Source: Malacoraja senta
Taxonomy: Eukaryota
Length of the DNA stretch: 64,000 nt
Assembly (NCBI GenBank): GCA_038087875.1
Contig: CM075988.1
Span: 11,782,001 to 11,846,000 of the forward strand
Direction of reading: 5' to 3'
Positions within the stretch are counted from its first letter, which is position 1. Every line of letters begins with the position of its first letter. Shown here piece by piece: positions 2,746 to 63,740 of this stretch. The notes under the pieces are model-generated. The model saw only the letters and a program-made list of their open reading frames with translations, made no database searches and was not told the DNA's origin. The position numbers and the translations under genes are program-made.

Positions 2746-2959
2746 GATAGACACAAAATATGTTGGAGTAACTCAGCGGGACAGGCAGCATCTCTGGATA
2801 GAAGGAATGGGTGATGTTTCAGGTCGAGACCATTCTTCAGAATCAACCCGAAACGTCACTCATTTCTTCTACCCAGAGATGCTGCCTGTCCCACTAAGTT
2901 ACTGTTGCATTTCGTGTCTATCTCTGGTTTAAACCAGCATCTGCAATTCCTTCCTACAG
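2746..2959 (+). mobile_element. Fold-back Penelope-like non-autonomous element with hammerhead motif
   Basis: Inverted arms plus constant 3' end CCAGCATCTGCAATTCCTTCCTACA; 17-bp TSD with 2 mismatches at 2729-2745 and 2960-2976. Confidence 0.8.
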
Positions 2960-5163
2960 GATATGACTATAGTGAAAGTTACCTCCTTTTAAATGTCACA
3001 GACAAGTGTGGTTAAATATTTAGAACTGAAGCTAATGTCTCACCAACCTCCTCCCACCAAATACCACCCGCAATCCCTGCTCTCCCACACCGAGCCCTTT
3101 GCATTGGCTCACCTCACATCAAGGGTGCCTTGAATTATTTTGTCATATTTATCAAGTATTTATTTCTATTTAACAATACCGATGTAACGCTATTGCTGGG
3201 AAAGCTCCATCCAGCCAGGCATCATAAAAAGTGTCTCAGTCTGAAGAAGGGTCTCGACCCAAAACTTTACCCTTGCCTTCTCTCCAGAGATGCTGCCTGT
3301 CCCACTGAGTTACTCCAGCATTTGGTGTCTATCACAAAAAGCACACTCACAAACCTATAATATAACACGTTTCATCAGACACTTTATTTTGAAAGCAGCA
3401 AAGCACAGTCATTTCTAAAAGCATAAATGCAACTGCAAAATTAGCTGCAAGACATCCATATATACATTATTCATAAACTAGCCCTCAATTGGAGCTGATG
3501 AAGTGATTTTTGTTCTTCAACTGGTTTTGATTGTAGGATTGGAATAATGGTTTATTTTTCTGAAAGTCTTGTGGGTGATATGCGATTCATTGTAATATTA
3601 ATCTGAATGTTACTCTGAGATTTACCAGGCAAAAGCAAAGACTCAGAAATCTGACATAAGACACATGCACACACTAATGTTAATAAACATTTTTTAAATA
3701 ATAACATGGCTATGATATCCAGATTAAGTAATATCCAAACAATTTAAAAATGTGAATTTGCAATTCCAGCAATTCAGATGAGATGAACCTCATTTAAGAT
3801 TGATGAATAGACTGTGACAAAAGAGGGTAGTGTGTCAACATGTCCAGGCTGTTTGATCATGCTGATAACATCACAACTAATTGCATAATAAGGTGACAAT
3901 TCACCCATATTACGATGTAGCAGAATAATAAGAGCAGAGGGTCACCTGCAACAGGAAGAAAGCAAGCTTGAACGGTTGATTTTGACCCAAGGGCAGTAGT
4001 TTTAATACAGAAGAAAACTAATACATTTCCTTCCTACAATTTCGCGAGTAATGTGCCATCATGGCTATAGGCATTCGTCAAATCTTTTTCCAAGCATATT
4101 TAATCTACTTGCTGTACCTTTCGGGGATGTTCAACATGGTTTTAGTGTCATAGTCCAAAATGCATGCCTTTCAATTTTGGGTATGACCAGAATTTGTGTC
4201 CAACCATCTAATCAAGTGCATAAGTTTGCAATATTTAAAAAAATGTTGTGATCTTATAATTTCTGGGGAAAAAACAGCACCAGGAAGGAATATTACTTAC
4301 ATTTTGAAAATATAATGCAATGCTAAAAATGTAAATATTAATTTATTGATTTTTATTTTGTTTATTATTATCTATGTGGATTGTGTTTTCAGGACTGCTA
4401 TGCGGCTGCAAGTAAGCATTTTATTGTTCTGTTGATGGTACTTAAGACAATTAAAATTAAGATCAGGTCTTCATTAATATTTACATTTTCCAAGGCTTCA
4501 ATTTTAACTCGGAGTTAACTCTTAAGGTTTGGATTTAATTGTTTTTAAATGCTGGAGGAACACATAGTTCAGCCAATATTTGAGGCGGGACTGCATTTCA
4601 TTGTCTACTGCATTTCGTTGTCTCTGTACTGTACACTGCACAATGACAATAAAGTTGAATCTGAATCTGAATCTGAAATGGACAGACAATGCTCGACATT
4701 ACGTCCCTTCACTTTGAAGAAGTGCCCTGGAACATCCAGGTGCTGCCTGACCCACCAAGTTTATCCAGCACTGTTTTTTGCTCAAAATTCTAATATCTAT
4801 AGTCTGTTGTGTCTCTTAGATTCAATTAAGTTTTTTTTGTAAAGTGTTGGGGAACTTTTGAAGAATAAATGTCATATTTCAGGTTGGTTTCATCAGCAGG
4901 GCTGGTTAATTCAACTTTTTGAATATACTTTGTATCTCCAACACATTAAGTGTCATGCCCTTTCACCTAAAGATTAAATTTTTACAATATCCTACCTACT
5001 GGATATCAATTATTAAAATAACACTCAATAAACTTAAAACAAAAAAGACACAAAATGCAGGAGCAACTCAGTGGGTCAGGCAGCATCTCTCGTGAACAGA
5101 AATGGGTGACATTTCAGGTTGGGACCCTTCTTCAGAACCTGAAATGTCACCTATGCATGTTAT

Positions 5164-5324
5164 GTCATAAGGAATAGGAGTAGAATTAGGCCATTCGGCC
5201 CATCAAGTCTACTCCACCATCCAATCATGGCTGCTCTGTCTCTTCCTCCTAACCCCATTCTCCTGCCTTCTCCCCATAAACTCTGATGCCTGTACTAATC
5301 AAGAATCTATCTATCTCTGCCTTA
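5164..5324 (-). mobile_element. CR1 3' end fragment inserted in a fold-back element
   Basis: Reverse complement of the tail seen at 42290-42440. Confidence 0.85.
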
Positions 5325-8300
5325 ATGTCTTTGTTTTGTAAACCAGCATCTGCAGCTCCTTATTTTCTCATCAAACTCAAGTTGCACAAAAGCCAAACAC
5401 TGAATGACAAATATAATTATTAAGTTTAACTCCCTTTCTTGTAGTGCTGCATTGACTCTCTCTTCCTTCCTTGTAAAATCGTACCCCTTACCATCCAATG
5501 TTTATGCTATCTAGTTCTGCACTGTTCCATCTGTCTTTCTCAGCCTTCTCCCACATCTTATTCCCTTTGGATTCTGCTATTCCGTTCATACCCCTATCCG
5601 CTTATCACATTTGTTAACCGGCAAGTCACATTTATTATTAATCGGGGTGACAACTGGATATTTTTCCCTCACCCTAAATTGAACCTTGGTTTAGGAACAT
5701 ATGATGCACCCAGTCTCTTACTTAATCCTATAGGTGATCACACCCAAGATGTCAATGACCAGAGATGTGACAACGATGATCATGTTAGGGTTAGAGTTGA
5801 CTTTTTTTTTCTGTTGTTATTTATTTGCTGAAAACTATGTGGCATGGTCTTTGTACTGGTCTTCTCTTTGGGCCGAATGTGGCCAGGTTCAAAACCACTG
5901 TATTTAATGAACACGCTGATTACGGAACCTCAAACAAAAAAACTCAACCGCTCAGCAGCATCCGTGGAGGGAAATGGGGTCAGACGATGGGACATTGGGT
6001 TTTAATAGGTTCCTGAACTAACCTGTTTGGTTACTGACATCTTTGGTGGAGCCAGATGACAAGATCAAAGGGATTTTTGAGCTATTGTCACACTTGCCCA
6101 TAGTTGACAAGTGAGATCATTCTCAAGGCTACTTGGTTTTTTTTCTTAGTCCGAATAGCATTGTTAAATGAATATCACAGGAGCATCATAGTTGCCCAGT
6201 TGAGGTTTTGCATTGCTGTACCTCATTCCCCCCACTAGATGAAGGAGATCTATTCACAAACCTGGGTTTCTGTGTGTTAACATTTTTATGCGTTAACATT
6301 ATTTTACAATCTCCATGGTGATATGTTGTGCTAGAACTCATGTTTTTCACATGAGTTCTAGCAGTCAAATGTTTATTTATCTACATTTTCAAAGTTAACT
6401 TTTAAAATGTGACGAGGCTTGAGTTGAACCATAAAATTGGACATCTTACACAACAGCAATTTTCCTTTCATTTGCATAATTGTTGCTGTTTCAATTCAAA
6501 TCAATTGAGAAAATGGATAGATGAATGACCTTTCTACAATTCAAAAAATGCTGCAGGCCCAGAAAATAAAAATGCTTTGAAAATTCAGCTTTTAAACTGT
6601 CCTTACTTGCATGAGAACATTGTCTTCTTTCAACAGATTCTTATGACCACAACTCTATTTTGGAAATGTGATACTAGGTATTGTTTGCTTCAAAATCACC
6701 CCCGAGTCACAGCTGGATGCACCGTAATCAGTTCTGCCATTGTGTGGGGAGATTTTTACAAACAGTGACTATACAGGGTTTGTTATATTTCCATGAAGGA
6801 TTCTCAGTTGCCTGCACAACTCCTTCCTCGTTTAAAAACAAAATAAAATAACAAAAATGCTGGAAATTTGTATACAAGTCAGGAAACATCTGTGAGAAGA
6901 GAAACCGAGTTAATGATACAGATTCAAGACCTTTCTTCAGTCTCAGACCAGAAGCTCTGTTTCTCATTCCATAGGTGCTGCCTGATCTGCTAAGTATGTC
7001 CAACACTTCCTGTTATATATATTTCAGATTTCCAGCATTTGTATGATGTTCTTTTGTTGTGTATTCTAATTTCACTTTCCATCGAGTGGAAGGCGCGCAA
7101 GTCCTTTCAGGTTTCGGTTTCATTCATATAAGAAATCTTCGGTCTTGTATTTATTCCTTGCAAGCATTGTTAAGCCACAACTGCTATGAATTGATGGTGG
7201 TTTGCTTCCTGGGTGCATAACAGATGAGATTAACAAGCAAACTGAATTTAAGATGCATCACCTCTATTTCATCCCAATATCTCAAGATATTTCTCAAGGT
7301 AAAATAGTTAAATTATGTTCCGCAACCAAAATAAAGTCCACAGTCTCCAGGAAAGAGACAGCACTATTATTGAGATTGGCCACATAACCATTAGAGGATG
7401 ACAACATTGAATTCAGACTGATTCTATTTGGTTAGATTTTATCTGTGAAGTCTCTGACCACAATCTGATAAAAGTAAATGATGATTAAATAACTTTCCAC
7501 AAGTTATGATTCATTGTCTTCTTTCTAGTGCATTTAGTTAAACATCAGAGCGAAGAGCAAAATATAATTTGATTGTTACCATACAGGTATTGGAATCTTC
7601 CAATTATGCTATCCTGATTCATAAGCTCGATTTTTTTTAAATCTTTGTGGATCCGAGCATAACCGGCAAGATCAGCATTTATTGCCTATTCCGAGTTGTC
7701 TTTCACAAGAGTGGTTTCTTGGTCTTCTCAGGACATTTATGACTTAACCACATTGGTGAGCCTGGTCACAGTTTTTCTTCCCTGGGGAACATCAGTGAAC
7801 TCGATGGATTTTGGCAACTATTTGTAGCTTTGTGGTTATTATTTAAAATGACCGCATTGGTTAAAATGCAGATTATTATTCAATTTTAATGTATTGGAGC
7901 CTTGCATTAAGCCAACTTAGATCACGTTATAAGAGAAGAAAACTTTTATTTATCAACAGGATAAAATATTGTATATTGTATCACTGACTAAATCTTCTGC
8001 ATAATTTTTCTTGGTAGAATAAATGCAACTAATTTTAATGGCTTGATCTATATAATCTGTGAGGATGATGGTTTTAAAACATAATTAGGAGATCCTAGTG
8101 CAAGTTTATTGTAAATGTTCCTTGTCTTTTAAAATCTTTAATTTCACACTCAATATATAAGGTAATTGGAAATGTCGCAACTAATAATGGATGGTTTTCT
8201 TTGTAAATGGTAAACACCTAATGTCATTTCTTATACATGGTAGATGGTGCAATGGACTGCTAGCTGGCAAAATGACTTGCGTAAGGCAGTGCCATTGTGT

Positions 8301-8446: not shown

Positions 8447-8653
8447 TATGTGTAGAAAGAAACTGCAGATGCTGGTTTAAACCAAAGATAGACACAAAAA
8501 GCTGGAGTAACTCAGCGGGTCAGACAGCATCTCTTGAGAAAAGGAACGGGTGACATTTCGGATCGAGACCTTCGACCCGAAACGTCACCTATTCCTTTTC
8601 TCCGGAAATGATGTCTGACCCGAGGTGTTATTCCAGCTTTTTGTGTCTATCTT
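8447..8653 (-). mobile_element. Fold-back Penelope-like element
   Basis: Same family, opposite orientation; GACCCGAAACGTCACC. Confidence 0.8.
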
Positions 8654-9180
8654 CTTCTGTCAGTATGTAGGTGATTCTGGAGATGATAAATAATCTGTGA
8701 AATGTCCGCTCCATGCACTCAGACGCTCCATGCACAGTCAAATGTGCAGGTCCAAGATGTCTGGCAATGACAATGCCTTAGACCTCTGCCACCAACCTTT
8801 GAGCCCAATGGTGGAAGAGCAACTGCACATAACAACTGGTCCTAACCTTCCAACAGAGAGCACCAATGTGTAGATAGAGACTCCATGTGTTCGAGACTGC
8901 TGATCCAGTGAAAAGTGTTAAGTAGAAGTCCTTTACTTTAATTTTGCTTTATTTAAGTGTTATCAATCATGTTAATTAACTCAATTTCTAAAAGTATGAT
9001 GAAAATCCATTTTCATAGTTTAAAATTGATCTTAATAATTAAAAGTAATTAATTAAAAACCTTCAAATAAAAAAACATTAAAATGTTTTATTTTGATAGC
9101 CATCGATGCTGAGCCAACTAGCAGGGAAGGTTGGTAGCACCTGATGGACGTGGGTCGTCTGTATGCACTGCTGGAGGCTG

Positions 9181-11645: not shown

Positions 11646-12894
11646 TGGAAAAAGTGTGTGGAGACTAGTAATTCATGTTGATTTATGACTGTACTTCTCT
11701 CACTAGTGCAATTAATCAATCGACTGATTTCATGTTCGCGTGGAGGGTTTTCCCATTGTCTCCGATCTACTGTCATTTGTAAGTGAAATACTTGTGGCAA
11801 TATACAGTTGACAAATAGTAGCCTCTCCTCTGTACTTTAGCTGCAATCCAGGATTCCATCTGCACACATTCAACTGGAACTAACATAGTCGGACTCTAAC
11901 CAGGCAGAGGTTTTCATGCATCAGGTGTCACTGACGTGGATGCCCCAAAGCGAAAAAAAAAATTATGATGGATGGATTGGCAATTATTTTGCACATTGCA
12001 TTTCAGTTTACTTTGCATTTCAGCCTTTAATCCTTTGCAAGAGCATATTGAGTAAAATGATTTTAATTTCACATTTCACAAATTTCTTTGGAGGTCACAC
12101 AATTAATCACCCCTGTCACCACATCAAGATAGTTAAGAAAAACCCTAGACTGAAATAAATGAAAAGCCATCTCAATGTTTTGAGCAGCATAACCAATGCT
12201 CAAAGCATCATCAAGGTTTTGTGTGAATTTAGAGCGTTGGAAATGTGTTCATGATGGATGAAAGCGAAGCCCCATTTTCAGACATGCCTGTGATCAGATG
12301 CCGGGTGAATCATTAAAATGTAATTCAAGGGTTGATCTTCTGAACTGCCCTAAAAGATGACAAAAATCATTCCCATCCTGAGCCAAGAAGCAAAGTATTG
12401 AAGGAACTCAGCATCTGTGGACTTTTTCAGTTCAAATCGTTTCTTCAGACTGAGTTAAGTTTCTCCAAAGTAACCCACATATTTTGCACCTTCCTCCAAA
12501 ATAAAGTCAATTGATGCCCTAATTTGAAGAATTTTCTTTTGCTTTCTAAATTTACACAGATTTATCTTGCACTTAAATGTGCATGGGATTTAAGTTCAAT
12601 TTGGATCTCAGCTTTAGCGATCTACATGGTCAGCAAATTTACATTTATATCTTATAATTTAGACAGTATATTTTGTCTGAAATAAAGGACCCGACCCAAA
12701 ATGTCACCATGTTCTCCAGAGATGCTGCCTGACTCGGGGAGTTACTCAGAGAATTTGTGTCATCCTTTGTCATTTTCTGCTACCAGAGGGCCATTTACTT
12801 CCTTTAAACAACAGTACATTGATTTAATCGGTATGATAACAACCTCAGAGATGATCCACATCAACGACTACCCAGCCCTTTGGCCAACATTGTA

Positions 12895-14111: not shown

Positions 14112-14345
14112 AATAGACACAAAAAGATGGAGTAACTCAGCGGGTCAGACAGCATCTCTAGGGAGAAGGAGTATGTGATGTTTTAGGTCGATCTGACATT
14201 CTTCAGACTGAGAGTCAAGGGAAAGGCAAATGAGAGATATAGACGGTGATATGAAGGGATGAAGAACAAATGAATGAAAGATATGAAAAAAAGTAATGAT
14301 GATAAAGGAAACAGGCCTTTTGTTAGCTGTGGGCTAGGTGAAGAT
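14112..14345 (-). mobile_element. Longer single-arm copy of the hammerhead-bearing family
   Basis: Arm plus ~130 bp upstream of the core, similar to 41575-41650. Confidence 0.7.
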
Positions 14346-16783: not shown

Positions 16784-17101
16784 GGGTGTAATTTTTTTTT
16801 CTTTCTTTTTTTCAATGAATCATGCCAAATTGAATTGCAATGCTCCATTATCCAGATGTTTGGGCAATATTGCCCTCAAACAAAAGATAGACACAAAAAG
16901 CTGGATTAACTCGGCAGGACAGGCAGCATCTCTGGCGAGACGGAATGGGTGACGTTTCGGGTTGAGACCAAAACACCTTGCATCTCCTTCTACATATCAC
17001 AGTCCACAAAGTATCTAATAATTTGAAGAGAGAGTGCAATTCAACTGTATTTTCCTTATTCTAAATTAATAGAAAATGCATCAGGATAAATTGTAGACCT
17101 A

Positions 17102-18565: not shown

Positions 18566-19154
18566 CCTTCAGTTTAGTTTAGTTTATTGGTGCCATGTGT
18601 ACTGAGATACAGTGAAAAACTTGTCATTGTGTGCTATCCAAACAAAGAAATATTTAAACATGATCCCAAGCTGTCCCTCAGGGTATTGATAAAGGATACA
18701 ACATTTAGTGCAAGATCAAGTCTGATAGAGTCCAATTAAAGACAGTTCAAGGTCTCCAATGGGGTAGATGGGAGGTCAGGACTGCACTCTAGCTGGTGAG
18801 ATGTCACTGAATGTGGAGGTATGCATTTTCACACTTCTATACCTCTTGCCTGATGGGATAGGGGGGAAGTGGGAGAGACTGGGGTGAGACTGGTCATTGT
18901 TTATTAATTTGAAATTATGCACAAGGAAACCATTCCTGATGACTTATTTGGTGGAGAGGTTCACTGCTAGATATGAGATATAAAGAATGGAGAAGCCCAA
19001 CATTTTTCTCACAGTTGTTTTTGGAGTAACCACTATCAGCCAAGAGATCTAAGCAATGATCTTTGGTCACAGTATCAAAGGGATAAACATCGGAAACACA
19101 GCTGTCTTCTATTGAATGGAGATCAGTGATTGGCAGTGTAAAGTTAAAAGTACT

Positions 19155-19340
19155 AACAAGGAACTGCAGATGTTGGTTTATTGTGGAAGGGCACAAAATG
19201 CTGGAGTAACTCAGTGGGTCAGGCGACATTCCTGGAGAATATCAATAGGTGGTGCTTCAACCCCGAAACGTCACCTATCCACGTTCTCCAGGAATGCTGT
19301 CTGACCCGCTGAGTAACTCCAGCATTTTGCGTCTTTCCTT
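19155..19340 (-). mobile_element. Fold-back Penelope-like element
   Basis: Inverted arms GCTGGAGTAACTCAG / CTGAGTAACTCCAGC. Confidence 0.75.
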
Positions 19341-20289: not shown

Positions 20290-20504
20290 AGACACAAAAT
20301 GCTGGAGTAACACAACGGGTCAGGCAGCATCTCTGGAGATGCTGAAGATGGGTTTTCTGAAGAGGAATCAGAGGGATCTATGAAGAAGGGTTCTGAAATG
20401 TCACTTTTTTTAAAACAGAGATGCTGCTTGAGCCGTTGAGTTTTTCCCACATTTTGTGTTTATCTTCGGTATAAACCAGCATCTGCAGCTCTTCCCCACA
20501 TACG
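20290..20504 (+). mobile_element. Fold-back Penelope-like element
   Basis: 11-bp TSD GTTAAAAATAT at 20279-20289 and 20505-20515. Confidence 0.8.
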
Positions 20505-21554: not shown

Positions 21555-21900
21555 CTCTACCCCAGACAGCTGTGGAGGCAGAATAATTGGATATATTCAA
21601 GGCAGAGGGTGTGAAACATTTACACTGCAATGATGTCCAGGAGTATGGGGAGAGCACAGAAAAGTGATTTGAGGTCAAGATTGAAGAAGGGTCTCGACCC
21701 GAAACATCACCTATTCCTTTGCTCCATAGATGCTGCCTCACCTGCTGAGTTTCTCCAGCATTTTTGTCTACGATCGATTTTTCCAGCATCTGCAGTTCTT
21801 TCTTAAACATGAGGTCAAGAGTAGATCGGGCAGGTGTTTGCTGAAAGGCACAGCAAACTTGAAGGGCAGAGTTACCTCGTATTCTCCTATTTCTTACATT
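21555..21900 (+). mobile_element. Degraded CR1 3' end interrupted by a hammerhead-bearing element
   Basis: GCTGTGGAGGC..GGATATATTCAAGGCAGAG..TATGGGGAG. Confidence 0.7.
21681..21809 (+). mobile_element. Single-arm hammerhead-bearing element
   Basis: Begins at TGAAGAAGGGTCTCGACCCGAAAC; 11-bp TSD TGAGGTCAAGA at 21670-21680 and 21810-21820. Confidence 0.85.
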
Positions 21901-29721: not shown

Positions 29722-31719
29722 ATCTATGCGTACGAGGGGTTTAAAAAAAATGCCTTTTAATTTTAAATGCTGGTAGAAAGCAATTGGGTTTAGCTGGAAT
29801 AGAATAGATGATCAGTGTTTTACACAATGTTCTTCTATTATGATCCAATATTATCAAATCTGTGGTGGCAGAATTACATGCATAATTTTTATAAAGTTGT
29901 TGATTAAATTGCAATCATAGAAACCAGTTTTAATGTAAATCTATATTTGGCATAACATTCAAACTGGAATAATCTTGTTCAAATGTCTCATTAAAATGGT
30001 TAGTGTAATAACATGTTTTAATGTATTGTAAACATGGTATCGCTACAAAGGACGTAAGGCACATAATTGAATAGTCAAAAATGAAGGAATGTAATTGAAT
30101 TAGCTTTAACATCCTCTGGCAATGTTATTGTTTCTTACAGTAATCGTTATAATTGAGTAGATATCTCAGTATGGTTCCTTCTGTTGTTACCAGGAAATAT
30201 TATTTTTCACCTGATTTACTGGGGTTGCTCCATGGGGCAAGAACATAGAATTTTGTAAACTTTTAAAGTCTGCATATTCAAAATTTACATCAAGATCATG
30301 CTTTTGAAGAATCCCATAGTTAATTCACTTTCATCAGGCAATGCAATGTGCCACTTGTTACTGACATGTCACATTCCATCTATAAACACAGGTGAACTGC
30401 AAAGGTTATCGATATTAGATTTTTTTTTTGGAAAACATCATAATATTAGAAATTGTCTTAAAAATAGATAACATAATAGGTCAAACACTGACTTTTTTCC
30501 TGATGATTAGTGATCCCATTTCGACAATTAGAGTAACCCACTGAGTTACACCAGCTTTTTGTGTCTATCTTTGATTTAAACCAGCAGCTGCAGTTCCTTC
30601 CTACACATATAAAGAAATAAATCAGGCTTCCTACACATTTTATTTAACTTGGTATATTTCTGAAAAAGATATTGTTATTAAAATACCAATATTTGCAGCT
30701 ATGTACACAAAATGGTGTCAATCCAGTGTAATGTTATCCCATGAGGATAAATAATTTTGGACTTTAAATGTTTAGAAAATGACATTTTTGTTAGTAAGGG
30801 TGTAAATCCAAAGCCATTAAAAAGATCAGCTTGTGTCTTATATCACTATCACGGCCATTTGTTTGCAGATGAGTTGCCAGAAAAGGGTGTGAGATGCTAA
30901 AGGTCAGTGAAACCGATTCCATCTATGGCTACTAGATGGAGTGTGAGATCCGAGGCTGCATTGAAGGACTAGATGGATATAAACTACAAACTACAAAGGT
31001 GAACAATGAGTGCTTGTGACTTGAATTCAATGATTCTGTCTCTAGTGGTTGATACATAGGTGTGTTTTCTCGGAAACAAATTGTGTGCAGTTGGCTTTGT
31101 TCATTTACAACCTGCCTGCCTGAATTTTCTTGGTGAACTGGAATAGAAAATGTTCAGTTTTATGAGGACAATATTGGACAAGCACCCCGGAATTTCTGAA
31201 TTCAAATGCGGACATGAAAATTCACTCTTTACAATTCACGCATTCGCATGTAAACACATTCCAGTTAATTCCAGTTAACTCTTCATTATCAACTCGACCC
31301 CAGCCGACATTGGACCATTGTGGGCTCGACCTTTCCTGAGTCATCGGTGCAGGCTCTGCTTTGTTCTATACCTTCCCATACCTTCAGTGTCCCCATCTCT
31401 GACTCTGTTTGATGAAGTGTCTCGACCCGAAACGTCACCTATTCCTTTTTCTCCAGAGATGCTGCCTGACCTGCTGAGTTACTCCAGCATTTTGTGTCAA
31501 TCTCCAGTTAATTCTAATCTGCCTATGTGTTATTCCATTCCAACAAGTTGCCTTATCAGGTCATTTACATATCTAGAATAAAGATGATATCATCTTCCTG
31601 TGTTTTCACCACTTTGAACTACCTTGGTGGGGTCCCTCTTCATTGTGTCTGTTGTTTCCTTAACTGGTCTCCCCATCACATAACTACCTCTGGAACTGAT
31701 CAATTTCCTCAACCTCAAA

Positions 31720-37589: not shown

Positions 37590-37621
<32 letters not shown>
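37590..37621. repeat. (GA)n microsatellite
   Basis: Seen directly. Confidence 0.95.
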
Positions 37622-40450: not shown

Positions 40451-40670
40451 AGACACATAAAGTTGGAGTAACTCAGTGGGACAGGCACCATCTCTGAAGA
40501 GAAGGAATGGATGACGTTTCAGGTTGAGACCCTTCATCAGACAGAAGGGTCTCGACCCGAAACGTCACCCTATCCTTCTCTCCAGGGATGCTGCCTGTCC
40601 CGCTGAGTTACTCCACCTTTTTGTGCCTATCTTCGGTTTAAACCAGCATCTGCAGTTCCTTCCTACCTAC
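40451..40670 (+). mobile_element. Fold-back Penelope-like element
   Basis: Perfect 14-bp TSD ATATAAAACAAAAT at 40437-40450 and 40671-40684; core motif on both strands. Confidence 0.88.
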
Positions 40671-41574: not shown

Positions 41575-41742
41575 CATATCTTTCATTCATTGTTCTTTAT
41601 CTCTCTACATCATCCTCTATATCTCCCATTTCCCTTATCCCTACTCAGTCCGAAGAAGGGTCTCGACCTGAAACGTCACCCATTCCTTCTCCCCAGAGAT
41701 GCTGCCTGAGTTACTCCAGCTTTATGTGTCTATCTCCAGCAT
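41575..41742 (+). mobile_element. Single-arm hammerhead-bearing element
   Basis: CAGTCCGAAGAAGGGTCTCGACCTGAAACGTCACC. Confidence 0.8.
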
Positions 41743-42087
41743 CAACCAAGAACAATTTAAAGAAACGTTTTAATCATTTATCTCTGTGGGAGTATCCAAC
41801 CCCAAATTAAGTTGTTGCATTCCTATAATACAACATGGAGAATACTGAATAAGTGATGAAGTTATATATTTCTACAGAATAGAAATGGGTACTTTGGCCC
41901 ATGTCCATGAAGATCTTTTGATCCATCTCCACCATTTGGTCTATATCCTTTCCTGCCTTGCCTATTCAACTGGCTGTCAATATATCTCTTAAACCTTGTG
42001 ATTGTATCTGATCCCAACACCTCCTGGCAGTGGGTGCTGAAGCTGGTTCAAGACACAAGGTCTGAAGAAGGGTTCCGAGCCGAAACC

Positions 42088-42442
42088 CAGCTTGGATAGA
42101 GTGGATGTGGATAGGATGTTTCCACTGGTGGGAGAGTCTAGGACTAGAGGTCATAGCCTCAGAATTAAAGGACGTTCTTTTAGGAAGGAAATTAGGAGAC
42201 ATTTCCTTAGTCAGAGGGTGGTGAATCAGTGGATTTTTTTGCCACAGAAGGATGTGGAGGCCAAGTCAGTGGATATTTTTAAGGCAGAGATAGATATATT
42301 CTTGATCAGTACGGGTGTCAGAGGTTATGGGGAGAAGGCAGGAGAATGGGGTTAGGAGGGAGAGATAGATCATCCCTGATTGAATGACAAAGTAGATTTG
42401 ATGGGTCGAATGGCCTAATTCTACTCATATTCCTTATGACCT
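42088..42442 (+). mobile_element. CR1 3' fragment inserted into a hammerhead core
   Basis: LDRVDVDRMFPLVGESRTRGHSLRIKG..QRVVN..GYGEKAGEWG. Confidence 0.92.
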
Positions 42443-44214
42443 AATGAAACGTCACCTGTACATGTTTTCCAGAAATGCTGCCTAACTCGCTGAATTACTC
42501 CAGGATGTTGTGTCATTTTTCGTAAACCAGCATCTGCAGTTTCTTGCGTACACATCAAATACACTTCATTGTACCTGTTTGACAGAATAACATCATGGCA
42601 CAGAAAACTGTCATGGGGGCACGAGATATATTGAAGTCCTTTATTCTCCTCCAAGTTCTGCATGTGATCTTGATCTCCTTTTGTTGGAAGATGCTACTTT
42701 TCAAGTTGGCATTTACCACAATGTCATAGATTTTGTAATCAGTGAACAACTGAGATCTGAAGAAAATCTATCTCTGCAACATGAATCCTTTCCCAATGCT
42801 GGTTCCCATCTGGCTTTAATTCTCTGGAATCTCTGGCAACTAGCATCAGTGATACCAGTAAGTAGTTGGTGCAGCCAAACACATTGAGGAATTCTCACAT
42901 ATGGCAAACCAGGAGGCAAAAATCAAAATATTCAATTACATTTTTGAACATTTTACAGATCATGAAATAGAGATTGGAGCAAATAGATGCAATGAAGATC
43001 AAGGCAGAAACATCTTAGACTTCATCAGAGAAGAAATTATTTTAAAAACTGATTAAGGGATAACATTTTGTGAACTTTTCCTCAGAGAATCAAAATTGAT
43101 GGTTGAAAAAAGTAGGGTTTTTTTAGTCAGGGCTGTTTCGTAGCAACACTATGATTTTAGTTAACATTTTCAGGGTTAATAGCAAACTTTGCTCAATTCA
43201 GTAATTTCTGCAGAATTCACTGGTGAAGTTTGCAAACACATTTTGTTTAGAAAATCACTGACAGTGACTTTCGGATGTTGTGAGATTTGCTCATCTTATT
43301 TATCGTTGTGAATTTTGTTTATTTCCTAGAGCAAATATTGTTGGTTTATTTCAAGTTGGTAATTGCCACAGATGACGTTAGCCTTGCTTCTTGAACCAAC
43401 TTCAGCAGCCACTGCTAGAGGAGGTGATCGGATCAGATACAATTACAATGTTTAAGGAATATTTTGACAGCCAGTTGAATAGGCAAGGCAGAGAAGGATA
43501 GAGACCTAACGGGATTAGTGTAGATGAACCAAAAGATATCCATGGCCAAAGATCTTCATGGCCTAAGTACCTGTTACTGTTCTGTAGAAATATATAACTT
43601 CTTAACTTATTCAGTATTCTCCGTGTTGTTTTATTGGAATGCAACAAATAACTTAATGGACGCAGTGGGCCAAAGGCTCTGTAAGAATATATTACTTCAT
43701 GACTCTGACCCATCAGAGAAGAATTTCTTGGAATGATCAAGAAATGCTCCAGTGAGATATGAAGCATCATATTAAGCAATGTTTCCGCTTTCAAGTAAAT
43801 GCTAGGTATCTATTGTAATATAGACAATGATCCAACCTAATGCTCAGAATATGTTGTCAAACTTATTGGCTTGTTTCTGACTAAATCAAATATGATATCC
43901 TTTACAAATGTTTGTACATCTTCATCCGTGGCCAATAATTCCTTCATAAGGTTATTCAGTGCCAGAATTCACAAGTAACACAAAAAAGAGGAGGCACCCT
44001 CCAGGGACTAATTTAGCAAAACATAAATTTAAAACTTCACCCATTCATCTTTCCACTGCCACTTTAATCCTTTAGAATACCAACTCCTCTAATTCACCCA
44101 TAACTGTGTTATTGTAGGGGGTTTGAATTCTGCTTAGCACCCAAATATTCCTTCAAAATGCTTCAAAAACTTTGAGTTTTAACACAACCTACTTTCCTAA
44201 CCATTCCTACAGAG

Positions 44215-44237
44215 GATATATATATATATATATATAT
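44215..44237. repeat. (TA)n microsatellite
   Basis: Seen directly. Confidence 0.95.
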
Positions 44238-45020: not shown

Positions 45021-46065
45021 CCTTTTAATCATTTCAATCAATTAAGAAATGTGTTCCTTCAGAAGTGGGAAAATTGGGCGGGAGCTGGGTATACACAGCC
45101 TTGTCCTGCTATCTTCTCACACTCATAGTTTGCGTCATAGAATAGGATAGCATGGAAACAGGCCCTTCAGCCCACCACTTCAGTGCTGACCTTTTTGCCC
45201 ATCTACCTTAATCCTTCTGCCCGCATTAGGGCAGTAGACATCCCTGCCTCTCAGTTAGTACAGATGTAGGGTTGCAACTCCACCTCCCAATGCATCCTAG
45301 AATCCTGCAGCAGAATCTCACGGGTATCGGGCCCGTAGTATCACCATGAGAAGGGCTGAGCCAAGACCTGCCCTGCAATCGCTCTCAGCCAGGAAAATCC
45401 CTACCACTAGCGTGGCCAGCTGTCGAAGCTGTAAGAGTTTTTCAACAACTTTTAAAATATATCTGAAATTGGGAGTCATTTAAAAACCAGTTAATATTAA
45501 ATTACATACAAAAATGCATTGCAAATTGAAAAACGTAAGGTTTATAATCGAAAATTTAAAGCCAATCAGAAATAATATAAAAATAGTCATGATATTCCAC
45601 TTTGGCTCCTAATCTGCCGTTACCATGGAAATCATTGGGCCATGGATCCTGTGGACTCCACCGGAAATCAGATGTTTCAGCAAAGTGGCAGATTCGAGAA
45701 AAACAAGAAACATAAATGCTGGAGTTACTCAGCAGTTGGGCAGCATCTCAGGAGAACATGGACAGGTGACATTTCAAGTCAGGACCTTGTTCTCATAGAT
45801 TCAGGCGGCTACTTTGGGACTTCTCTATCTAAAAGATTATCTATTGTGAATTTGAGTGCAGGCTGCTCTGAACTGAATCACTGTCATTCTCCACCCAGTG
45901 AAACATTAAATGATGAACAGGTACCCTGGATTGTTTATTGAATTGAGAATATCTCGGATCCCGTTCCTACTTATGGCGATGACTTTCATGTCAGTAACTG
46001 GGAGAGAGCTAAAAAAAAAGGGCCACATTGACATGAACCAGCAGAAATTCTCATTCCTAACTTTG

Positions 46066-51972: not shown

Positions 51973-52066
51973 CAATGCTGGTTTATATCGAAGATAGGCA
52001 CAAATGATGGAGCAACTCAGTGGATCAGGCTGAGAGAAAGAATAGGTGACATTTTGTGTCGGAACC

Positions 52067-54210: not shown

Positions 54211-54224
54211 GGCCTGGGGCAAGG

Positions 54225-56910: not shown

Positions 56911-57447
56911 CAGTTACATTTGAATGCTTTTAAAGTGTTTCTGACATTTGAAAGCCGCTCAAAGGGAGCAAGGAGTCACAAGTCCTTCTCGGGAAGCTGG
57001 AAGCCAAGGGTTCAATTGAAGCCTGACTCCTTGTTGCTACTCAAAGCCTTCTCCATTCATGGCAGGACTCTTGAGTACAGAGTAATATCTCAGCCAGACG
57101 AGAGAGCACCAAGTTCAAGCAGTTGGCCAGAAACAGAATTTTCAATTAACTCAACCTTTTCAATGCTGAAGAAACAGTGTTCCCTCTGGAACTCACACTT
57201 CCAAGAGGATATTAGATGGTGGACACAAGGAACTGCAGCTACTGGTTACAAAAAAAAGACACAAAATGCTGGAGTAACTCAACAGAGCAGGCAGCCTCCC
57301 TGGAGAACATGGATAGGTGAAGTTTTAGGTCAGAACCTGTATATATCCTGCAGAGTTGTTGTCCGATTAGTTACCCCAGCAATTTGTGTGGACATCAAAT
57401 GGTCCTTGTTGTTGGTAACATTCTAAATGATTGTATCAGAAGTCTAA

Positions 57448-57813: not shown

Positions 57814-58474
57814 TAAGTCTTGATGGCGATAACCTAATTGGCTTGCATGCTGCTCCTGGTCGAGTTTTACATGTGGCTTCAGTCATTGTCAGGAAGTTTA
57901 CTTGAATGTCTCCTCAGATTTGAACACTATTTTAATCCAGAGAATTTTCATGCCCAGACCTGGGCACAGTGCAATGGGACAGATTTATTATTACAATGCA
58001 CTTGATAAATCAGTTGGATCTGTTTTCTGAAAAGGAAAGTAATAGTTGGAATTTACACACAGAGTAACAATTCCTCATAATCAACGAACTCCTGCCACTG
58101 AAAGATTTGTTTTAGCTCAGAATGGAATATGTGTATAGGAAAGCATCACCATAGAAATACGAGTATTTTGCCAGGAATGTAAATGTAAATATCTTGACAC
58201 GTAAAGATATTTTGACATTCAACCTGACATTCTTAACTGAGCATTAAAATATTTTACTATCAGCTTACTTCGGATTGACACAAATTCATCTTAAATATAT
58301 ATCCATATGCAATTTATACTGACTCGAAGGCTTAGTGTTGGTATTGTCGGCACCAAGCTCAATAAGGTTTTTGCAGGAGCAGTGTACTTTGACTATTTTA
58401 CATCTATTTAAAATGGAAATGATATGTAAATCATGCTAGCTTGTTGTGCACATATCAAAACCATAGTATAAGAA

Positions 58475-58789
58475 GATAGACACAAAATGTTGGAGTAACT
58501 CTGCGGGTCAGGCAGCACGTCTGGAGAGAAGGAAGAGCTGACGTTTCTGGTTGAGATCCTTGTTCAGACTGAGAGTCAGGGGAGAGGGAAACAAGAGATT
58601 TGAAAAGGTATCATTTGTTCTTTGTATCTTTTCATACCTCGTTTCGCTCTCCCCTGACAGTCTGAAGAATGGTCTCGACCCGAAACGTCACCAATTCCTT
58701 GTCTCCAGACATGCTGCCTGACCCTCTGAGTTACTCCAAATTGTTTTGTCTATCTTTGCTGTAATCCACCATCTGCAGTTCCTTCTTAC
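58475..58789 (+). mobile_element. Long fold-back Penelope-like element (~135-bp imperfect stem)
   Basis: Core CTGAAGA 58662-58668 to GAAACGTC 58682-58689; 14-bp TSD with 2 mismatches at 58461-58474 and 58790-58803. Confidence 0.85.
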
Positions 58790-58869
58790 CCGTAGTATGA
58801 GAAATTGCTTTAGGTTCTGAAGAGCAAGGATTGTTCGCATGTTTCCAGTTAGGATTTTCCATATTGAGG

Positions 58870-59326
58870 ACTCTCCCGACGCCCAGGAACATCGGGCCTC
58901 CGTAGAGGCAACTGTGGCGGCCTCGATGGGCCTGACTCTGGGGAGAACTGGGTTGGGGACTGGACATTGTGCCTTCCCCCACAGTGGTAACCATTGTGGT
59001 AACCAGTGGTAACCATTGTGGGGGGATGATTTTGTGTGTAGTGTTAAGTGTCTGTGTTAGTCTATGTCCAACATGGTGGGCGGAAGGGAGAGTGTACGCT
59101 GGCGCGGTTTGGCTGCCGCTGCTCTCCCTTCATGTTGTGTTTTCTGAAGTTTGTTGTTGTCTTTTTTGGATCAAATTTCTGTTTTTAATTTATGTGTTGG
59201 TGATGTCTTCATAACCTATTTTACTCTGATTATATGTTTATATGTTTATATGTTTCTTAAATTGTAAGGTGTCCTAGAGACCTTGCTATTAGGCGCCCTT
59301 AAAATAAAATCTATTATTATTATTAT
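58870..59326 (+). mobile_element. Non-coding retroposon with L2-type 3' end and (TAT)n tail
   Basis: 3' end GGTGTCCTAGAGACC..AGGCGCCC..AATAAAATC(TAT)n; a shorter copy lies at 17102-17307; flanked by a 77-bp direct repeat. Confidence 0.8.
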
Positions 59327-60989
59327 TAGTATGAGAAATTGCTTTAGGTTCTCAAGAGCAAGGATTGTTCGCATGTTTCCAGTTAGGATTTTCCATATTG
59401 AGGTAGCTCCTTGTGGGGAGAGCATTGTGTTCTGAGCAATGCAATGATAAAGACGAGATCCAAGGAAGGGCAGCCACTGAAATCATGAGCAAAACACAGT
59501 GTTGGAGTTTGTGTTTTGCTGAAGATTCTAGCACCTGAGTCTGAAGAAGTGTCCGATCAGAAACGTTGTCTATCCTTATCCTCCAGCGATGCTGCCTGAC
59601 CTGCTGAACTACTCCAGCACTGTGTGTAATGACAAGGAGGCTAGTGTTAAGAAAGTGGATTTCAGTTCTCAATCTATGATAATCTCATTGCAATCCAAAA
59701 CCTTTGATCTCACAAGGGAACAAGCACAAGAGATTTGAGTCTGAAGATGGGTTCAGACCCAAAACTTCACCTATTCCTTTTCTCCAGAGATCCAGAGATG
59801 CTGCCTGATCCACTGAATTACTCCAGCATTTTGTGTCTATCTTAAGTATAAGTGGTTGCGATCCACTTTCTCTAGGTTGGGAGGCTCTTCAACATGGATG
59901 GTGGCCTAGAAAATAGACCAATTCATCCCATGGAAAAGGCTGTGTGAATAATTAGGATTTGGCTTCACATCCCACTGATGGTCATTTAGCCAGGAAAATT
60001 GAAGCCTGCAACCTTGTGGATCCATACCAGCGTAAATTGGTTGGTCATGTCAAGAAATTGAAGCACCGAAACTAAACATGAACAAATTTATGACAGGCTT
60101 CTGTGGAGTGACTATGAATGATTTGATGTACATTTTCTTTGTTTATTCGGCAGGATCATCGCAGTCCATGCTGTGCATGGCTTATTATGTGGGAAAGAAA
60201 TTTTGAGCTGTGCTCAGAAAATAATGCCAATTCCAAGTCATCAGAGGAAAGTCCCGACAGAATAAAGCAAAACTAGGTCCCTTGCGCTCATTTCAAAGCA
60301 GTTAAGTGGAAATGTAAGCTTTGTTTATTCCACACGACAGTTGAGTAAAACAAACCAATGTTCCTCTTGACACGTCTGAACAGTTTTCTTTTTCCCTATT
60401 GAGAGAGAGATCAAGGTGGCAGGTCAAGTGTAGCATGGGTCTCTCAAGCATTTCGCATGAAAAACTGAATTTAGCATCAAACCATTTCATTAAAAAATCC
60501 AAGCTAACCGGTTTATTGAAGTTTCGGAGAGAACATTGCTAAAGGTCGCCAGGAGTGCATTGACATCTTGCCGTTCAATCCTCAGCAACTTGCAGCTTGA
60601 CTAACTCCATTACTGGGCCTTGTATTAATTATGTAGAATTTAGCTGGACCTCTTTCCTATTATGGTTGGAAAATAAAACAGGTCTGGTTTCCGGTTATCA
60701 TTGGTATTGGCCAGGTTGTGCTATGAGTCTACTTTTATTCTTGAGATTTTTTTATCCATATAATGGTCACTTGCTCCAGGTAGAATTGTATTAACCCACT
60801 TATTCAGGCATTAATGTGAACTTGCCACCTCTTCCCTTGATAAGCAATGGTTAGCATAATAAAGCCTGCAGGCAAAATAAGTAGTAAAATTAAATGGCCT
60901 TTTTTGAAGAATGAACTGCATTTGCTATTGTTAGTTCACATTGACGAGAGATAAATGAAACATGCATGTCCTGTGGTCAATAAGGAGGA

Positions 60990-61650
60990 TCAACGATACT
61001 TGGCTCATATTTGCTTGAAGATTGGAATACAAAAATAAAGTCGTTGCATTACAATTATATGAGACTTGGTTGAGATTGCATTAGTGAATTGTGGTCTTAA
61101 TTATAACAAAAAATTATTATAGAGGGGGTTCAGCATAGATTGGCAGTCCATTACAAGGGGCAACTAGTTATTTGTCCTTTAGAATGTAAAAAATGAGAAA
61201 TTACAGCTTTGAAACACAGAAGATCCTTAGAGGGCACATGAAAGGGAGATGCAATGAGAATGTTTCTCCAGGCTGAGGAGTCTAGAACTAAGGGTTATAG
61301 TCTTAATATAGAGTCATACAGTCATAGAGTGAAACAGTGTGGAAACAGGCCCTTCTGCCCAATTTGTCAATATGTCCCAGCTACACAAGCCCCACCTGCC
61401 AGCATTTGGTCCATATCCTTCCAAACCTGTTTTATCCATATATGAGGTAGATGATTAGAACCTAAAGTGAGAAGAAATATCTTCACAGTGGGTGGAGATT
61501 CTTTTCCCCAAGAAGGCTCTGGCATTGATTGATCTATTTCTAGAAACTGGAGGAATTGAGGGATATGGGGAAAGAGCAGGACAATGGGGTAAAGGTAGAA
61601 GATGAGCCATAACTCTGAATGGGAGGATAAGAACCACCTACCATTATTTC
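60990..61650 (+). mobile_element. Highly degraded CR1 fragment(s)
   Basis: AEESRTKGYSL-like motif; includes an inverted tail piece at ~61310-61440. Confidence 0.65.
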
Positions 61651-62249
61651 TTGCATAAATTGTGAAACCATCATTTTATTTCTGGTTTTGTAAGTTGTTT
61701 GGCCAACCATTAGTTTATTTACAGAGAATACAGCTTAACAACATGAGCAGTTGAAACAGCTTAATGTGAGACATTTGCTAAAGAAAGAATGGGAGAATAC
61801 AATCATTGGAGTTGTACAACATGGAAACAAGCACTTTGGTGCAATTTGTCCACACAACCAAGATGGAAAGATAATGATAAATTTGGAGAAAAATAAATGC
61901 ATCAAAATGGTTAAATAAGGAGACGCATTGTAAACCATGTTTCATAAATTGAGAATAGAAAACGAGAATAAAGTCATAATGGTAAATGTGTGTAGATGTA
62001 GTTAGAAGTGTTTAGGAGAAAATAGTTACACAAACATTAAAGCTACTGAGCATACTGGTGTACATTGGATGACATAATGGATTCCCAGAAAGACTAATGA
62101 GAAGACAATGAGATACTGAAGCTATTTCCATTAGACACAATTAGCTTTAGTAAAAGATTAAAAGATAGGAAGACTTTTAATAGGGCAAGATGGTGTCCTG
62201 TGTTAAAGATTTCTTTCTCAAGGTAAAGCACTTCTAATCTTCCTCAAGA

Positions 62250-63740
62250 GAATGAAGAGAAAGATTAGGAGAAATTAGCATTTATCCAGAGAGCATAAAA
62301 TATTCTGGCACACAGTATGGTGGGCGAGGGTGATTTTATATATTTGAAGGAGAAAATGAAAGTGTGGAGTAGGAAATACAACAGCATGATTAAGATGAAA
62401 GCAGTAAAAGGAGTGTGGACTTTAGCAGGGCCTTTGGAAAAAAGTGCTGCATGGTGGGCTAATCTGATGGTTAGATCCCATGGGATCCAAAGTGAAATGG
62501 CCAATTGGATATAAAATTGCCTGTAAAGGCAGGAAAAGAAGGGAAACAAAGGGTGGTGGTGGAGGATTGTTTTTCAGATATGAGGCCAGCAATGACTGAT
62601 GAGCCACAAGGATCTAGGCTGTATCCATATTGCTCATTATTTGTACTAACAACTTGTTTTTGTATGTGTATGTAGGTGGCATAATTAGTTGGTTTGCAGA
62701 TGGTCGTGTAGTGAACAGTGAAAACATTATCAATGATTACAATAGAATCTTGATCAATTGGGCTAATGTGTTGAGGAATGGCAGATGGAGTTTAATTCAG
62801 ATAAATGTGAGGTGCTTCAGTTTGGTTGAACAAACCAGGGGCCTGGAGAATGTTGCAACACAGAGAAGCCAAAGGTTGAAGGTACAAACTTCCCTGAAGG
62901 TGGAGACACAGATGGATGGGGTGGCAAAGAAGGCATTTGACACATTTAGCTTTATCGGTAAGGGCATTGGGTACAGGAGATGGGATGTTATGTTACAGCT
63001 GGTCAAGACTTTGTGAGGCCACATTTGGAGTACGATGTACAGTTCTCGTCTCCCTTTTATGGGATGTACATCATTAAATGGGAAAGGTATAACAAAGACT
63101 AAGGAGGATGTTAGTAGGTCTGGAGGGTTTGAGCTATAGGAGAGGCTGGATGGACTGTGTTCATTTTCCCTGGAGCATAGGTGGCTGAAGAGTGACTTTG
63201 GGGAAATATATATAAAATCATGATGAAAGTGAACAGCTACAGTCTTTTCACCAGGGTGGGGGGGGGGGGGGGTGTCTAAAGCTAGAGGGTATAGAATTAA
63301 GATGAGAGGGGAAAGATTTAAAAGGGAATTGAGGGCAACAGATTTCCCACAGATGTTAGTGCCTAGCTAGAATGACCTGCCAGAAGAAGTGGTTGAGGCA
63401 GGTACAATTATTTCATTTATAAGACGCTTTGACAGATGCAAGGATAGGAATGGGTTGAAGGGCTCTGGACCAGGTGCAGGCAAGTAAGACTATTTTACTT
63501 AAGTTGAAGATAGACACAAAATGCTGGAGTAACAGCGGGTTAGACTGAGGAAGGGTCTCGACCCAAAACATCGTCTATTCCTTTTCTCTGGAGATGCTGT
63601 CTGATCTGCTGAGTTACTCCAGCTTTTTGTGCCTATCTTTGGTGTAAACCAGAATCTGAAGTTCCTTCCTACACATCTTATTTAAGCTACCTGGTCAGCG
63701 TGGATGTGTTTGTGCCGAAGGGCCTGTTTCAGTGTTTGGT
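62250..63740 (+). mobile_element. Degraded CR1 LINE RT fragment and 3' end
   Basis: IISWFAD, SLKVETQMDGVAKKAF..IGYRRWDVMLQLVKTL, RPHLEY; 3' tail ..CCGAAGGGCCTGTTTC; interrupted by a fold-back element at 63506-63677. Confidence 0.85.
63506..63677 (+). mobile_element. Fold-back Penelope-like element inside a CR1 tail
   Basis: Short inverted 5' arm, core remnant, constant 3' end. Confidence 0.8.

What the first reader, a model, noticed from the sequence alone, without database searches (positions are those of the whole stretch)
2746..63677. Very abundant short retroelement family carrying a minimal hammerhead-ribozyme core (Penelope-like)
Seen: about 25 copies or fragments in 64 kb (e.g. 2746, 3235, 5045, 8447, 12676, 14112, 16885, 19155, 20290, 21681, 31295, 40451, 41575, 42058, 51975, 58475, 59535, 59736, 63506). 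Their shared core reconstructs as CTGA(A/T)GA-A-GGGT-CTCG-ACCC-GAAA-C-GTC. That is CUGANGA, helix II, GAAA and a GUC cleavage triplet, with helix III reduced to the palindrome ACGT. Copies share one 3' end (..CCAGCATCTGCAGTTCCTT..ACA, no poly(A)), vary at the 5' end, and have 11-17 bp TSDs. Established: Penelope-like element pseudo-LTRs carry minimal type I hammerheads with palindromic truncated helix III, proposed to cleave as dimers. Inference: this is a massively amplified non-autonomous PLE derivative. Caveats: no single copy here is perfect (many changes fit CpG decay), helix I is only 2-3 bp, and the family may already be in repeat libraries without the ribozyme being noted.
Basis: partly seen in the sequence, partly recalled or inferred. 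Interest (0 to 1): 0.75.

Follow-up and report, generated by a model that had tools for sequence, protein, structure and literature searches.

The report
Penelope retrotransposon ends carrying hammerhead motif
The repeat is real and covers over 5% of this window; it carries a minimal hammerhead-ribozyme sequence, often sits as mirror-image pairs, and is likely the decayed end piece of a known kind of jumping gene (a Penelope-like retrotransposon) rather than a new, working ribozyme element.

Summary
The repeat is real: 36 arms in 27 loci (0 in control), 5.6% of the window. Its majority core fits the published minimal hammerhead of Penelope-like elements (PLEs), in the window and in contigs of four related organisms. 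At least nine loci are head-to-head inverted pairs inside 10-17 bp target duplications. There are two 3' ends about 35 nt apart, and each inverted pair carries the longer 'tail' on one arm only. Junctions differ between loci, so the pairs likely form at integration and are not an amplified unit. No arm starts at the predicted cut site (0 of 37), so templates were likely uncut RNA. Core CpGs decay like their neighbours; only 2 arms pass a strict descriptor, both in inverted loci whose RNA is predicted to be a long hairpin. Best reading: 5'-truncated ends of an endonuclease-bearing PLE, nearly all dead. 'Non-autonomous derivative' is not shown. The link to an RT/GIY-YIG ORF and self-cleavage are untested. 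This scan noted the same kind of repeat before in several other shark/skate-like windows. New member of a known kind.

The parts
2217..2284 (.). Collapsed inverted pair; left arm is tail only, right arm tail-less
   Evidence: TSD 11 of 13 matching
2746..2959 (.). Inverted pair; minus arm tail-less and spanning the core, plus arm with tail
   Evidence: TSD 15 of 17 matching
3235..3333 (+). Single tail-less arm starting just 5' of the core; G12 mutated
   Evidence: (TSD 10 of 11)
5045..5361 (.). Inverted pair whose plus arm is interrupted by another repeat (about 5160-5325); the minus arm passes the strict min-HHR descriptor (C3 at 5135)
   Evidence: (TSD 11 of 14, by eye only)
6845..7043 (.). 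Older, diverged inverted pair of a related subfamily
   Evidence: TSD not established
8448..8657 (.). Inverted pair; tail on the minus arm; junction inside helix II
   Evidence: TSD 12 of 16, p 0.035-0.054
12676..12774 (+). Single tail-less arm, loop-CCCG subfamily
14113..14342 (-). Tail-less arm with the longest upstream extension in the window (about 130 nt 5' of the core)
   Evidence: repeat depth falls to single-copy level near 14345-14355
16885..16969 (-). Single tail-less arm starting inside helix II
19151..19340 (.). Inverted pair; tail on the minus arm
   Evidence: TSD 9 of 10
20290..20504 (.). Inverted pair with filler at the junction; tail on the plus arm
   Evidence: exact 11-bp TSD
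21681..21809 (+). Single arm with tail, starting at the core
   Evidence: exact 11-bp TSD
30535..30608 (+). 3' fragment with tail, no core
31283..31502 (+). Tail-less arm with about 120 nt of upstream sequence between it and the left TSD; C3 mutated
40451..40670 (.). Inverted pair inserted into an older relative; tail on the plus arm; the minus arm passes the strict descriptor (C3 at 40540)
   Evidence: exact 14-bp TSD; hairpin -136.8 kcal/mol
41575..41736 (+). Tail-less arm with about 70 nt upstream extension shared with the 14113 copy; U4 mutated
42058..42554 (+). Likely one arm with tail, split by another repeat inserted just after GAAA (pieces 42060-42086 and 42446-42554)
45713..45788 (-). 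Diverged tail-less arm
51975..52066 (-). Arm whose tail is cut short next to another repeat
57221..57389 (.). Diverged inverted pair; tail on the minus arm
   Evidence: TSD 11 of 14
58475..58789 (.). Inverted pair, both arms reaching about 45 nt upstream of the core; tail on the plus arm; plus-arm core intact except pair 10.1-11.1 (C3 at 58662)
   Evidence: TSD 12 of 14
59535..59843 (+). Two same-strand tail-less arms 200 bp apart, both with damaged cores
63504..63674 (.). Inverted pair; short minus arm, plus arm with tail; G12 mutated
   Evidence: TSD 10 of 12

Best explanation
The repeat is a family of short, dispersed, decayed inserts carrying a minimal hammerhead sequence, and they are likely the 5'-truncated end repeats (pLTRs) of an endonuclease-bearing Penelope-like retrotransposon, likely copied from RNA that the hammerhead had not cut. 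Shown in sequence: the min-HHR core; two 3' ends about 35 nt apart; inverted pairs inside 10-17 bp TSDs with the tail on one arm only; a different junction at each locus; 5' ends clustered just upstream of the CUGA core and none at the cut site; CpG decay through the core. Inferred mechanism: the PLE protein nicks AT-rich DNA on both strands 10-17 nt apart and starts reverse transcription inside the pLTR at one of two sites (with or without tail). cDNA mostly stops in or just beyond the hammerhead. When both nicks are extended, one from each start site, the two cDNAs join head to head, giving an inverted pair. The hammerhead is a real, constrained feature of the source elements, probably active only as a dimer or with protein help. 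In the genomic copies it is a passenger.
For: Core matches the metazoan min-HHR consensus of PMC4209133 Fig. S3, including the extra nucleotide after A9, G10.1-C11.1 and the palindromic 15.2/16.2 pair. The same core from G5 through GUC is the consensus of loose ends in 4 of 4 runs laid, from four coded organisms. In 2 of 2 runs, the only changes at >=4% between C3 and C17 are at two CpGs plus the laid copy's own mutation; a second subfamily changes loop II and downstream bases but keeps the stem and core. Core plus helix II non-CpG mismatches are 26 of 369 against 52 expected base-matched. Inverted 5'-truncated copy, 30-40 bp tail at one end, and 8-10 bp TSDs are published PLE features. Semi-blind test: in 11 of 11 inverted loci the best TSD lay at a one-short/one-long boundary pair, 9 of them credible. 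29 of 37 arms start upstream of consensus position 26 and 0 of 37 start within 4 nt of the cut site. This fits PAc in vitro: both strands cut and extended, two internal RT start sites, uncut RNA as main substrate, protein-assisted ribozyme. Arms of one pair share variants at 3.6 per 100 sites against 1.1 between loci.
Against: No PLE RT or GIY-YIG ORF was found in the window or tied to the repeat, so PLE membership rests on anatomy. All three frames of the majority pLTR close before the tail ends (read from the majority line), unlike PAc and Pen2a_Av, whose ORFs begin in the pLTR. About 11 of 37 arms start within 10 nt of the core's 5' edge, and 328 and 386 contigs in two runs leave into low-agreement AT-rich flank at that point; a fixed-start non-autonomous element would also give this. 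Helix I is only 2 bp and is unfavourable in the nearest-neighbour model (pair probability 0.004). No covariation in helix II among 18 arms. The conservation excess comes from A, T and C positions, not G (12 of 81 against 29 of 291), and copies are not independent. Rfam hammerhead models gave no hit at E<=1. TSDs were found for only 3 of 14 single arms.
Confidence: 0.8

Rival explanations
1. A dedicated non-autonomous PLE derivative (SINE-like or monomeric retrozyme) with its own fixed 5' end at the base of the hammerhead, mobilised in trans by a PLE protein; this is the first reader's view.
For: 5' ends cluster at the 5' edge of the core. No ORF is linked. pLTRs suffice in cis for trans-mobilisation in Adineta. 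A 2026 preprint derives vertebrate retrozymes from pLTRs and reports them in its one chondrichthyan.
Against: Shared sequence extends at least 130 nt upstream and continues past the longest window copy in four organisms. 5' ends and junctions are heterogeneous. No head-to-tail arrays of intact units were seen among the 27 clusters. No tRNA was called in the window.
Confidence: 0.13
2. The inverted pairs are MITEs (DNA transposons with long terminal inverted repeats), and the hammerhead is inherited or accidental.
For: Long, near-perfect hairpins flanked by TSDs.
Against: The two termini are unequal (tail on one arm), TSD length varies from 10 to 17 bp, every junction differs, and single arms also carry TSDs.
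Confidence: 0.03
3. 3' ends of an ordinary LINE or SINE, with inversions from twin priming and a chance hammerhead-like string.
For: Variable TSDs and 5' truncation are generic to target-primed retrotransposition (established knowledge). Helix I is minimal and no covariation is seen.
Against: No poly(A) or simple-repeat tail. Both arms end at 3' termini and overlap in sequence, whereas L1 twin priming gives non-overlapping inverted segments (recalled). The full min-HHR pattern including its extra features is present, with 2 strict hits against 0 in controls.
Confidence: 0.04

Closest known systems
[quoted passage not shown]
   Same: CUGANGAH core, extra nucleotide after A9, G10.1-C11.1, loopless palindromic helix III, short helix I; mostly dispersed single motifs from truncated PLEs; dual motifs 100-700 bp apart on opposite strands.
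   Different: Helix II is 4 bp (many published ones 5-8); helix I is 2 bp, the short end of the published range. No chondrichthyan is in the Fig. S3 list as read. Density here looks far above the about 4,000 (coelacanth) and 9,000 (Xenopus) motifs reported, although those counted only descriptor-passing motifs.
Insertion anatomy of EN+ PLEs (Penelope/Poseidon, Neptune, Nematis): Arkhipova et al. 2013 (PMC3846280, passages) and Craig et al. 2021 (PMC8557442, passages)
   Same: Heavy 5' truncation, adjacent inverted truncated copy, 30-40 bp tail at one end only, short TSDs, palindromes at junctions.
   Different: Here the units are pLTR-only, 70-315 bp, with no ORF seen; TSDs are 10-17 bp against 8-10 bp in Adineta; clade not determined.
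Poseidon element of Anolis carolinensis (PAc), Frangieh et al. 2024 (PMC11167929; parts 1-2 of 4 read)
   Same: Two RT start sites defining the tail, AT-rich targets, both strands cut and extended, uncut RNA used; all consistent with the ends seen here.
   Different: The PAc ORF starts at helix II; here no frame stays open through the majority pLTR and tail.
Non-LTR retrozymes (bioRxiv 10.64898/2026.07.22.740005; parts 1 and 3 of 5 and passages read)
   Same: Non-coding, type I hammerhead, pLTR-related; reported in one chondrichthyan.
   Different: Defined there as head-to-tail tandems with intact hammerheads; here the copies are single or head-to-head and decayed.

Membership tests
Metazoan PLE minimal hammerhead (min-HHR) | CUGANGA and GAAA core with NUH triplet | tested here: met
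   Majority of window arms; majority in contigs of other runs
Metazoan PLE minimal hammerhead (min-HHR) | Helix II with G10.1-C11.1 and an unpaired nucleotide after A9 | tested here: met
   4-bp stem, 84.7% of cells paired in 18 arms; no covariation above shuffles
Metazoan PLE minimal hammerhead (min-HHR) | Palindromic, loopless helix III | tested here: met
   ACGU in the majority
Metazoan PLE minimal hammerhead (min-HHR) | Helix I of 2-6 bp | tested here: inconclusive
   Only 2 bp; predicted pair probability 0.004; 2-bp examples are in Fig. S3
Metazoan PLE minimal hammerhead (min-HHR) | Self-cleavage as dimer or with protein | not testable with these tools
   Bench assay needed
EN+ Penelope-like element | ORF with telomerase-like RT and GIY-YIG endonuclease joined to this terminus | tested here: inconclusive
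   None in window; no genome held; no linking locus or protein
EN+ Penelope-like element | Inverted 5'-truncated copy next to the terminus | tested here: met
   At least 9, up to 11, of about 27 loci
EN+ Penelope-like element | Optional 30-40 bp tail, at one end only | tested here: met
   14 arms with, 16 without; one-sided in 9 of 9 credible inverted loci
EN+ Penelope-like element | Short variable TSDs, no poly(A) | tested here: met
   12 of 23 insertions, 10-17 bp
EN+ Penelope-like element | Direct pLTRs flanking an ORF (partial tandem) | not testable with these tools
Non-LTR retrozyme | Head-to-tail tandem units each with an intact hammerhead | tested here: not met
   Nearby same-strand arms (for example 59538/59738, 2843/3237) have damaged cores and unrelated spacers
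MITE | Equal terminal inverted repeats, fixed TSD length, copies amplified as one unit | tested here: not met
   Unequal ends, TSD 10-17 bp, locus-specific junctions

The most novel reading that the evidence does not exclude
These inserts are a very large natural record of PLE integration. Every inverted pair would arise from one protein dimer that nicks both target strands 10-17 nt apart and obligatorily primes the two cDNAs at different start sites (one with tail, one without) on uncut RNA, the cDNAs stopping and annealing at the self-complementary base of the hammerhead. The hammerhead region would then act as the stop-and-join signal for reverse transcription, not as a processing enzyme, and this lineage would hold one of the most abundant hammerhead motifs known in a vertebrate genome.
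Probability: 0.3. Interest if true: 0.55.

Novelty: new member of a known kind. Interest (0 to 1): 0.3.

Why it matters
The motif, its home in PLE end repeats, and the inverted-plus-tail anatomy are all published, so this is not a new kind of element. Its value is as material. PLE integration is still an open question (PMC11167929 says later steps are yet to be validated), and a family this abundant, with readable TSDs and two sharp 3' ends, allows genome-scale tests of the one-tail-per-pair rule, of where cDNA stops relative to the hammerhead, and of target microhomology. If transcribed, the inverted pairs would be a large source of long double-stranded RNA rather than of active ribozymes.

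Tried and rejected
Own genome: none held. Rfam scan to E<=1: no hammerhead model hit; the microRNA-family hits only reflect hairpins. Pattern scans for related loci found 0 in metagenome contigs, viral contigs and prokaryotic genome contigs. Pfam on 5 long ORFs and 135 further stop-free frames of >=75 aa (143 such frames listed, the rest scanned or low-complexity) gave only LINE-type RT fragments and one sub-threshold DUF; a motif scan of all six frames showed no convincing PLE ORF piece. Shorter or frameshifted PLE remnants are therefore not excluded. Two searches for longer proteins reading through into the repeat found none; weak evidence. No RNA holder listed, which says nothing about expression. 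A-to-I editing footprint: no arm shows an A>G cluster (maximum 4 of 18 changes). Two-template origin of the arms: not supported here; the partner arm ranked in the top 5 of 27 for shared variants in 13 of 14 cases, though same-subfamily templates or gene conversion could give the same. Helix II covariation: none above shuffles. In one search two loci (5045, 6850) gave 8-bp matches at mis-projected boundaries and were dropped from the credible count (9 of 11). Summed contig depth (2.5e7 against 31 in unique flank, run X2) is not used as a copy number. Lunse et al. 2017 (PMC5785218) is not held; I saw it only as cited in PMC6765202 (passages). Literature searches for a description of this family in cartilaginous fish listed none, but Repbase and Dfam cannot be searched here and the 2026 preprint's supplements, which may hold its chondrichthyan consensus, were not seen.
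Full report
Observation. The window is CpG-depleted animal DNA (CpG observed/expected 0.36) with LINE RT fragments and several other repeat families. I read it as a skate or ray from recalled likeness of those repeats to the HE1 SINE and CR1 ends; no call tested the taxon. An HMM built from 9 copies finds 36 arms in 27 clusters, and none in the reversed window. A second round covers 5.6% of non-N bases. Runs from eight other coded organisms share 16-23% of the sampled words of window 57000-60000. In the 4 runs laid, from four organisms, 43,000-54,000 contigs each align to a 511-bp stretch holding one arm. The family is therefore abundant across the lineage. I give no copy number, because summed contig depth is not one; window density alone is one arm per 1.8 kb.

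The hammerhead. The majority of window arms reads CUGAAGA, A, a 4-bp helix II with a 4-nt loop, GAAA, CGU, C. That fits the metazoan min-HHR consensus in the supplement of PMC4209133, including the extra nucleotide after A9, the G10.1-C11.1 pair and the palindromic helix III. Loose-end consensuses in all 4 runs give the same string from G5 through GUC. In 2 runs laid on 58612-58815, the only differences at 4% or more between C3 and C17 are at two CpGs and at this copy's private change. A second subfamily appears with a different loop II and different downstream bases but the same stem and core. In the window, non-CpG core and helix II positions mismatch the majority in 26 of 369 cells against 52 expected from base-matched downstream positions (position-level p 0.008). 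This suggests constraint on the source elements, with caveats: G positions show no excess, and copies are related. Core CpGs are changed in 18 of 49 cells against 18 of 60 downstream, so inserted copies decay freely. There is no covariation in 18 arms. Helix I is 2 bp. In the nearest-neighbour model the first 50 nt of the majority prefer another fold (helix II probability 0.11, helix I 0.004), and the helix II plus III dimer (-12.7 kcal/mol) is above the best dimer (-21.1). A strict descriptor passes 2 arms (C3 at 40540 and 5135, both minus strand, both with a G-U closing pair) against 0 in each of 8 controls. Both lie in inverted loci; the 40451 locus folds into one hairpin of -136.8 kcal/mol, z -19, which would bury the core. 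Rfam hammerhead models find nothing; those models include a full helix III (recalled).

There are two 3' ends about 35 nt apart: 14 of 37 arms carry the extension and 16 full-bodied arms lack it (the arm at 40446 scores as tailed only because it sits in an older relative, outside its exact 14-bp TSD). At least nine loci are head-to-head pairs. With boundaries set by eye, TSDs of 10-17 bp scored p<0.05 in 9 of 9 inverted and 3 of 14 single insertions; those p-values are optimistic. I therefore projected the two consensus ends on each arm and tried all four boundary pairs. In 11 of 11 inverted loci the best TSD came from a one-short/one-long pair; two of these were spurious 8-mers, leaving 9 credible, of which 5 pass p<0.0125. 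The tail is on the left in 4 and on the right in 5. Junctions differ at every locus. Published EN+ PLE insertions show exactly this: an adjacent inverted truncated copy, a 30-40 bp tail at one end, short TSDs. Cervera and de la Pena already noted dual min-HHRs 100-700 bp apart on opposite strands and attributed dispersed motifs to truncated PLEs.

How it likely works. 29 of 37 arms begin upstream of consensus position 26 and none within 4 nt of the predicted cut at position 32/33 (six starts at position 1 are limited by the model's edge). The templates therefore likely carried an uncut hammerhead; earlier notes of this scan on other genomes made the same reading, and I checked it here. About 11 arms stop within 10 nt of the core's 5' edge, where the helix I strand and CUGA form an imperfect palindrome. 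In vitro, the Anolis PLE protein cuts and extends both strands of AT-rich DNA, starts at two internal sites that define the tail, uses uncut RNA, and its hammerhead cleaves only with protein present. The simplest model is that single arms come from one primed nick and inverted pairs from two, one at each start site, joined head to head. Arms of one pair share variants more than arms of different loci (3.6 against 1.1 per 100 sites, 7 pairs), consistent with one template or one subfamily. These steps are inferred; Arkhipova et al. proposed self-priming on an antisense template as another route.

Autonomous or not. The copy at 14113-14342 extends about 130 nt upstream of the core, and 227-324 contigs per run continue beyond 14317 with a shared sequence. 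So the source element is longer than the common short copy. I could not follow it to an ORF: no genome is held, four pattern scans were empty, two read-through protein searches were empty, and the window has no PLE ORF. Earlier notes state that related shark repeats end protein-coding PLEs; I did not verify that. Truncated ends of an ordinary PLE is the more economical reading (0.8), and a fixed-start non-autonomous derivative remains open (0.13).

Novelty. The motif, its PLE association and the anatomy are in print. Four searches listed no description of this particular family, no chondrichthyan is in the 2014 alignment as read, and a 2026 preprint reports tandem retrozymes in one chondrichthyan whose supplements I did not see. 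Repeat libraries could not be searched. The scan has noted the same kind of repeat in at least eight other findings from shark- or skate-like DNA. Verdict: new member of a known kind, interest 0.3. The strict one-tail-per-pair pattern and the stop at the hammerhead's base are the parts worth a genome-wide test.

Noticed in passing
window 14199-14260 (-), 41600-41650 (+), 58620-58661 (+): A pyrimidine tract ending in CAG lies directly 5' of the helix I strand, like a splice acceptor. In D. virilis Penelope an intron ends at the 5' side of helix I. A second pyrimidine tract with CAG lies about 19 nt after the cut site, followed by an ATG. Untested.
   Followed up: no
window 40410-40740: The young inverted pair at 40451-40670 is inserted into an older relative of the same family, between its two CCAGCAT motifs.
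   Followed up: partly
majority positions 79 and 109: The 7-mer CCAGCAT occurs twice, 30 nt apart, each about 20-25 nt before one of the two 3' ends; it may be the protein's recognition mark for the two start sites.
   Followed up: no
window 2729-2746, 3333, 20290, 40451, 40670, 63674: Several TSDs begin with 2-3 bases, once about 9 of 10, that match the element's own continuation, suggesting target-RNA microhomology at priming. Seen by eye, not quantified.
   Followed up: no
window 32216-34507 (+): Open 763-aa frame with a Pfam RVT_1 domain (E 2e-41); looks like a 5'-truncated, young L1/Tx1-type ORF2 (type recalled).
   Followed up: partly
window 47453-48430 (+), 23503-24003, 62618-63016 and short copies: CR1-like RT and 3' end fragments (RVT_1 at 47453-47800; type recalled); one such repeat family interrupts two hammerhead arms (5160-5325, 42087-42445).
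   Followed up: partly
window 24300-24553, 29440-29697, 39572-39790, 46192-46315, 52642-52898: A second abundant family (D14-D16, D19, D20) resembling the elasmobranch HE1 SINE (recalled; ARAGORN called no tRNA).
   Followed up: no
window 54226-54720: G-rich stretch followed by a complementary C-rich low-complexity array forming a long imperfect hairpin.
   Followed up: no
window 14699-14739 and 14940-14980: 41 bases on either side of the 200-N gap are an exact inverted copy of each other; possibly an assembly artefact.
   Followed up: no
window 55455-55826 (-): 123-aa frame resembling the C-terminal end of an RTE-type LINE ORF (recalled; no Pfam hit).
   Followed up: no
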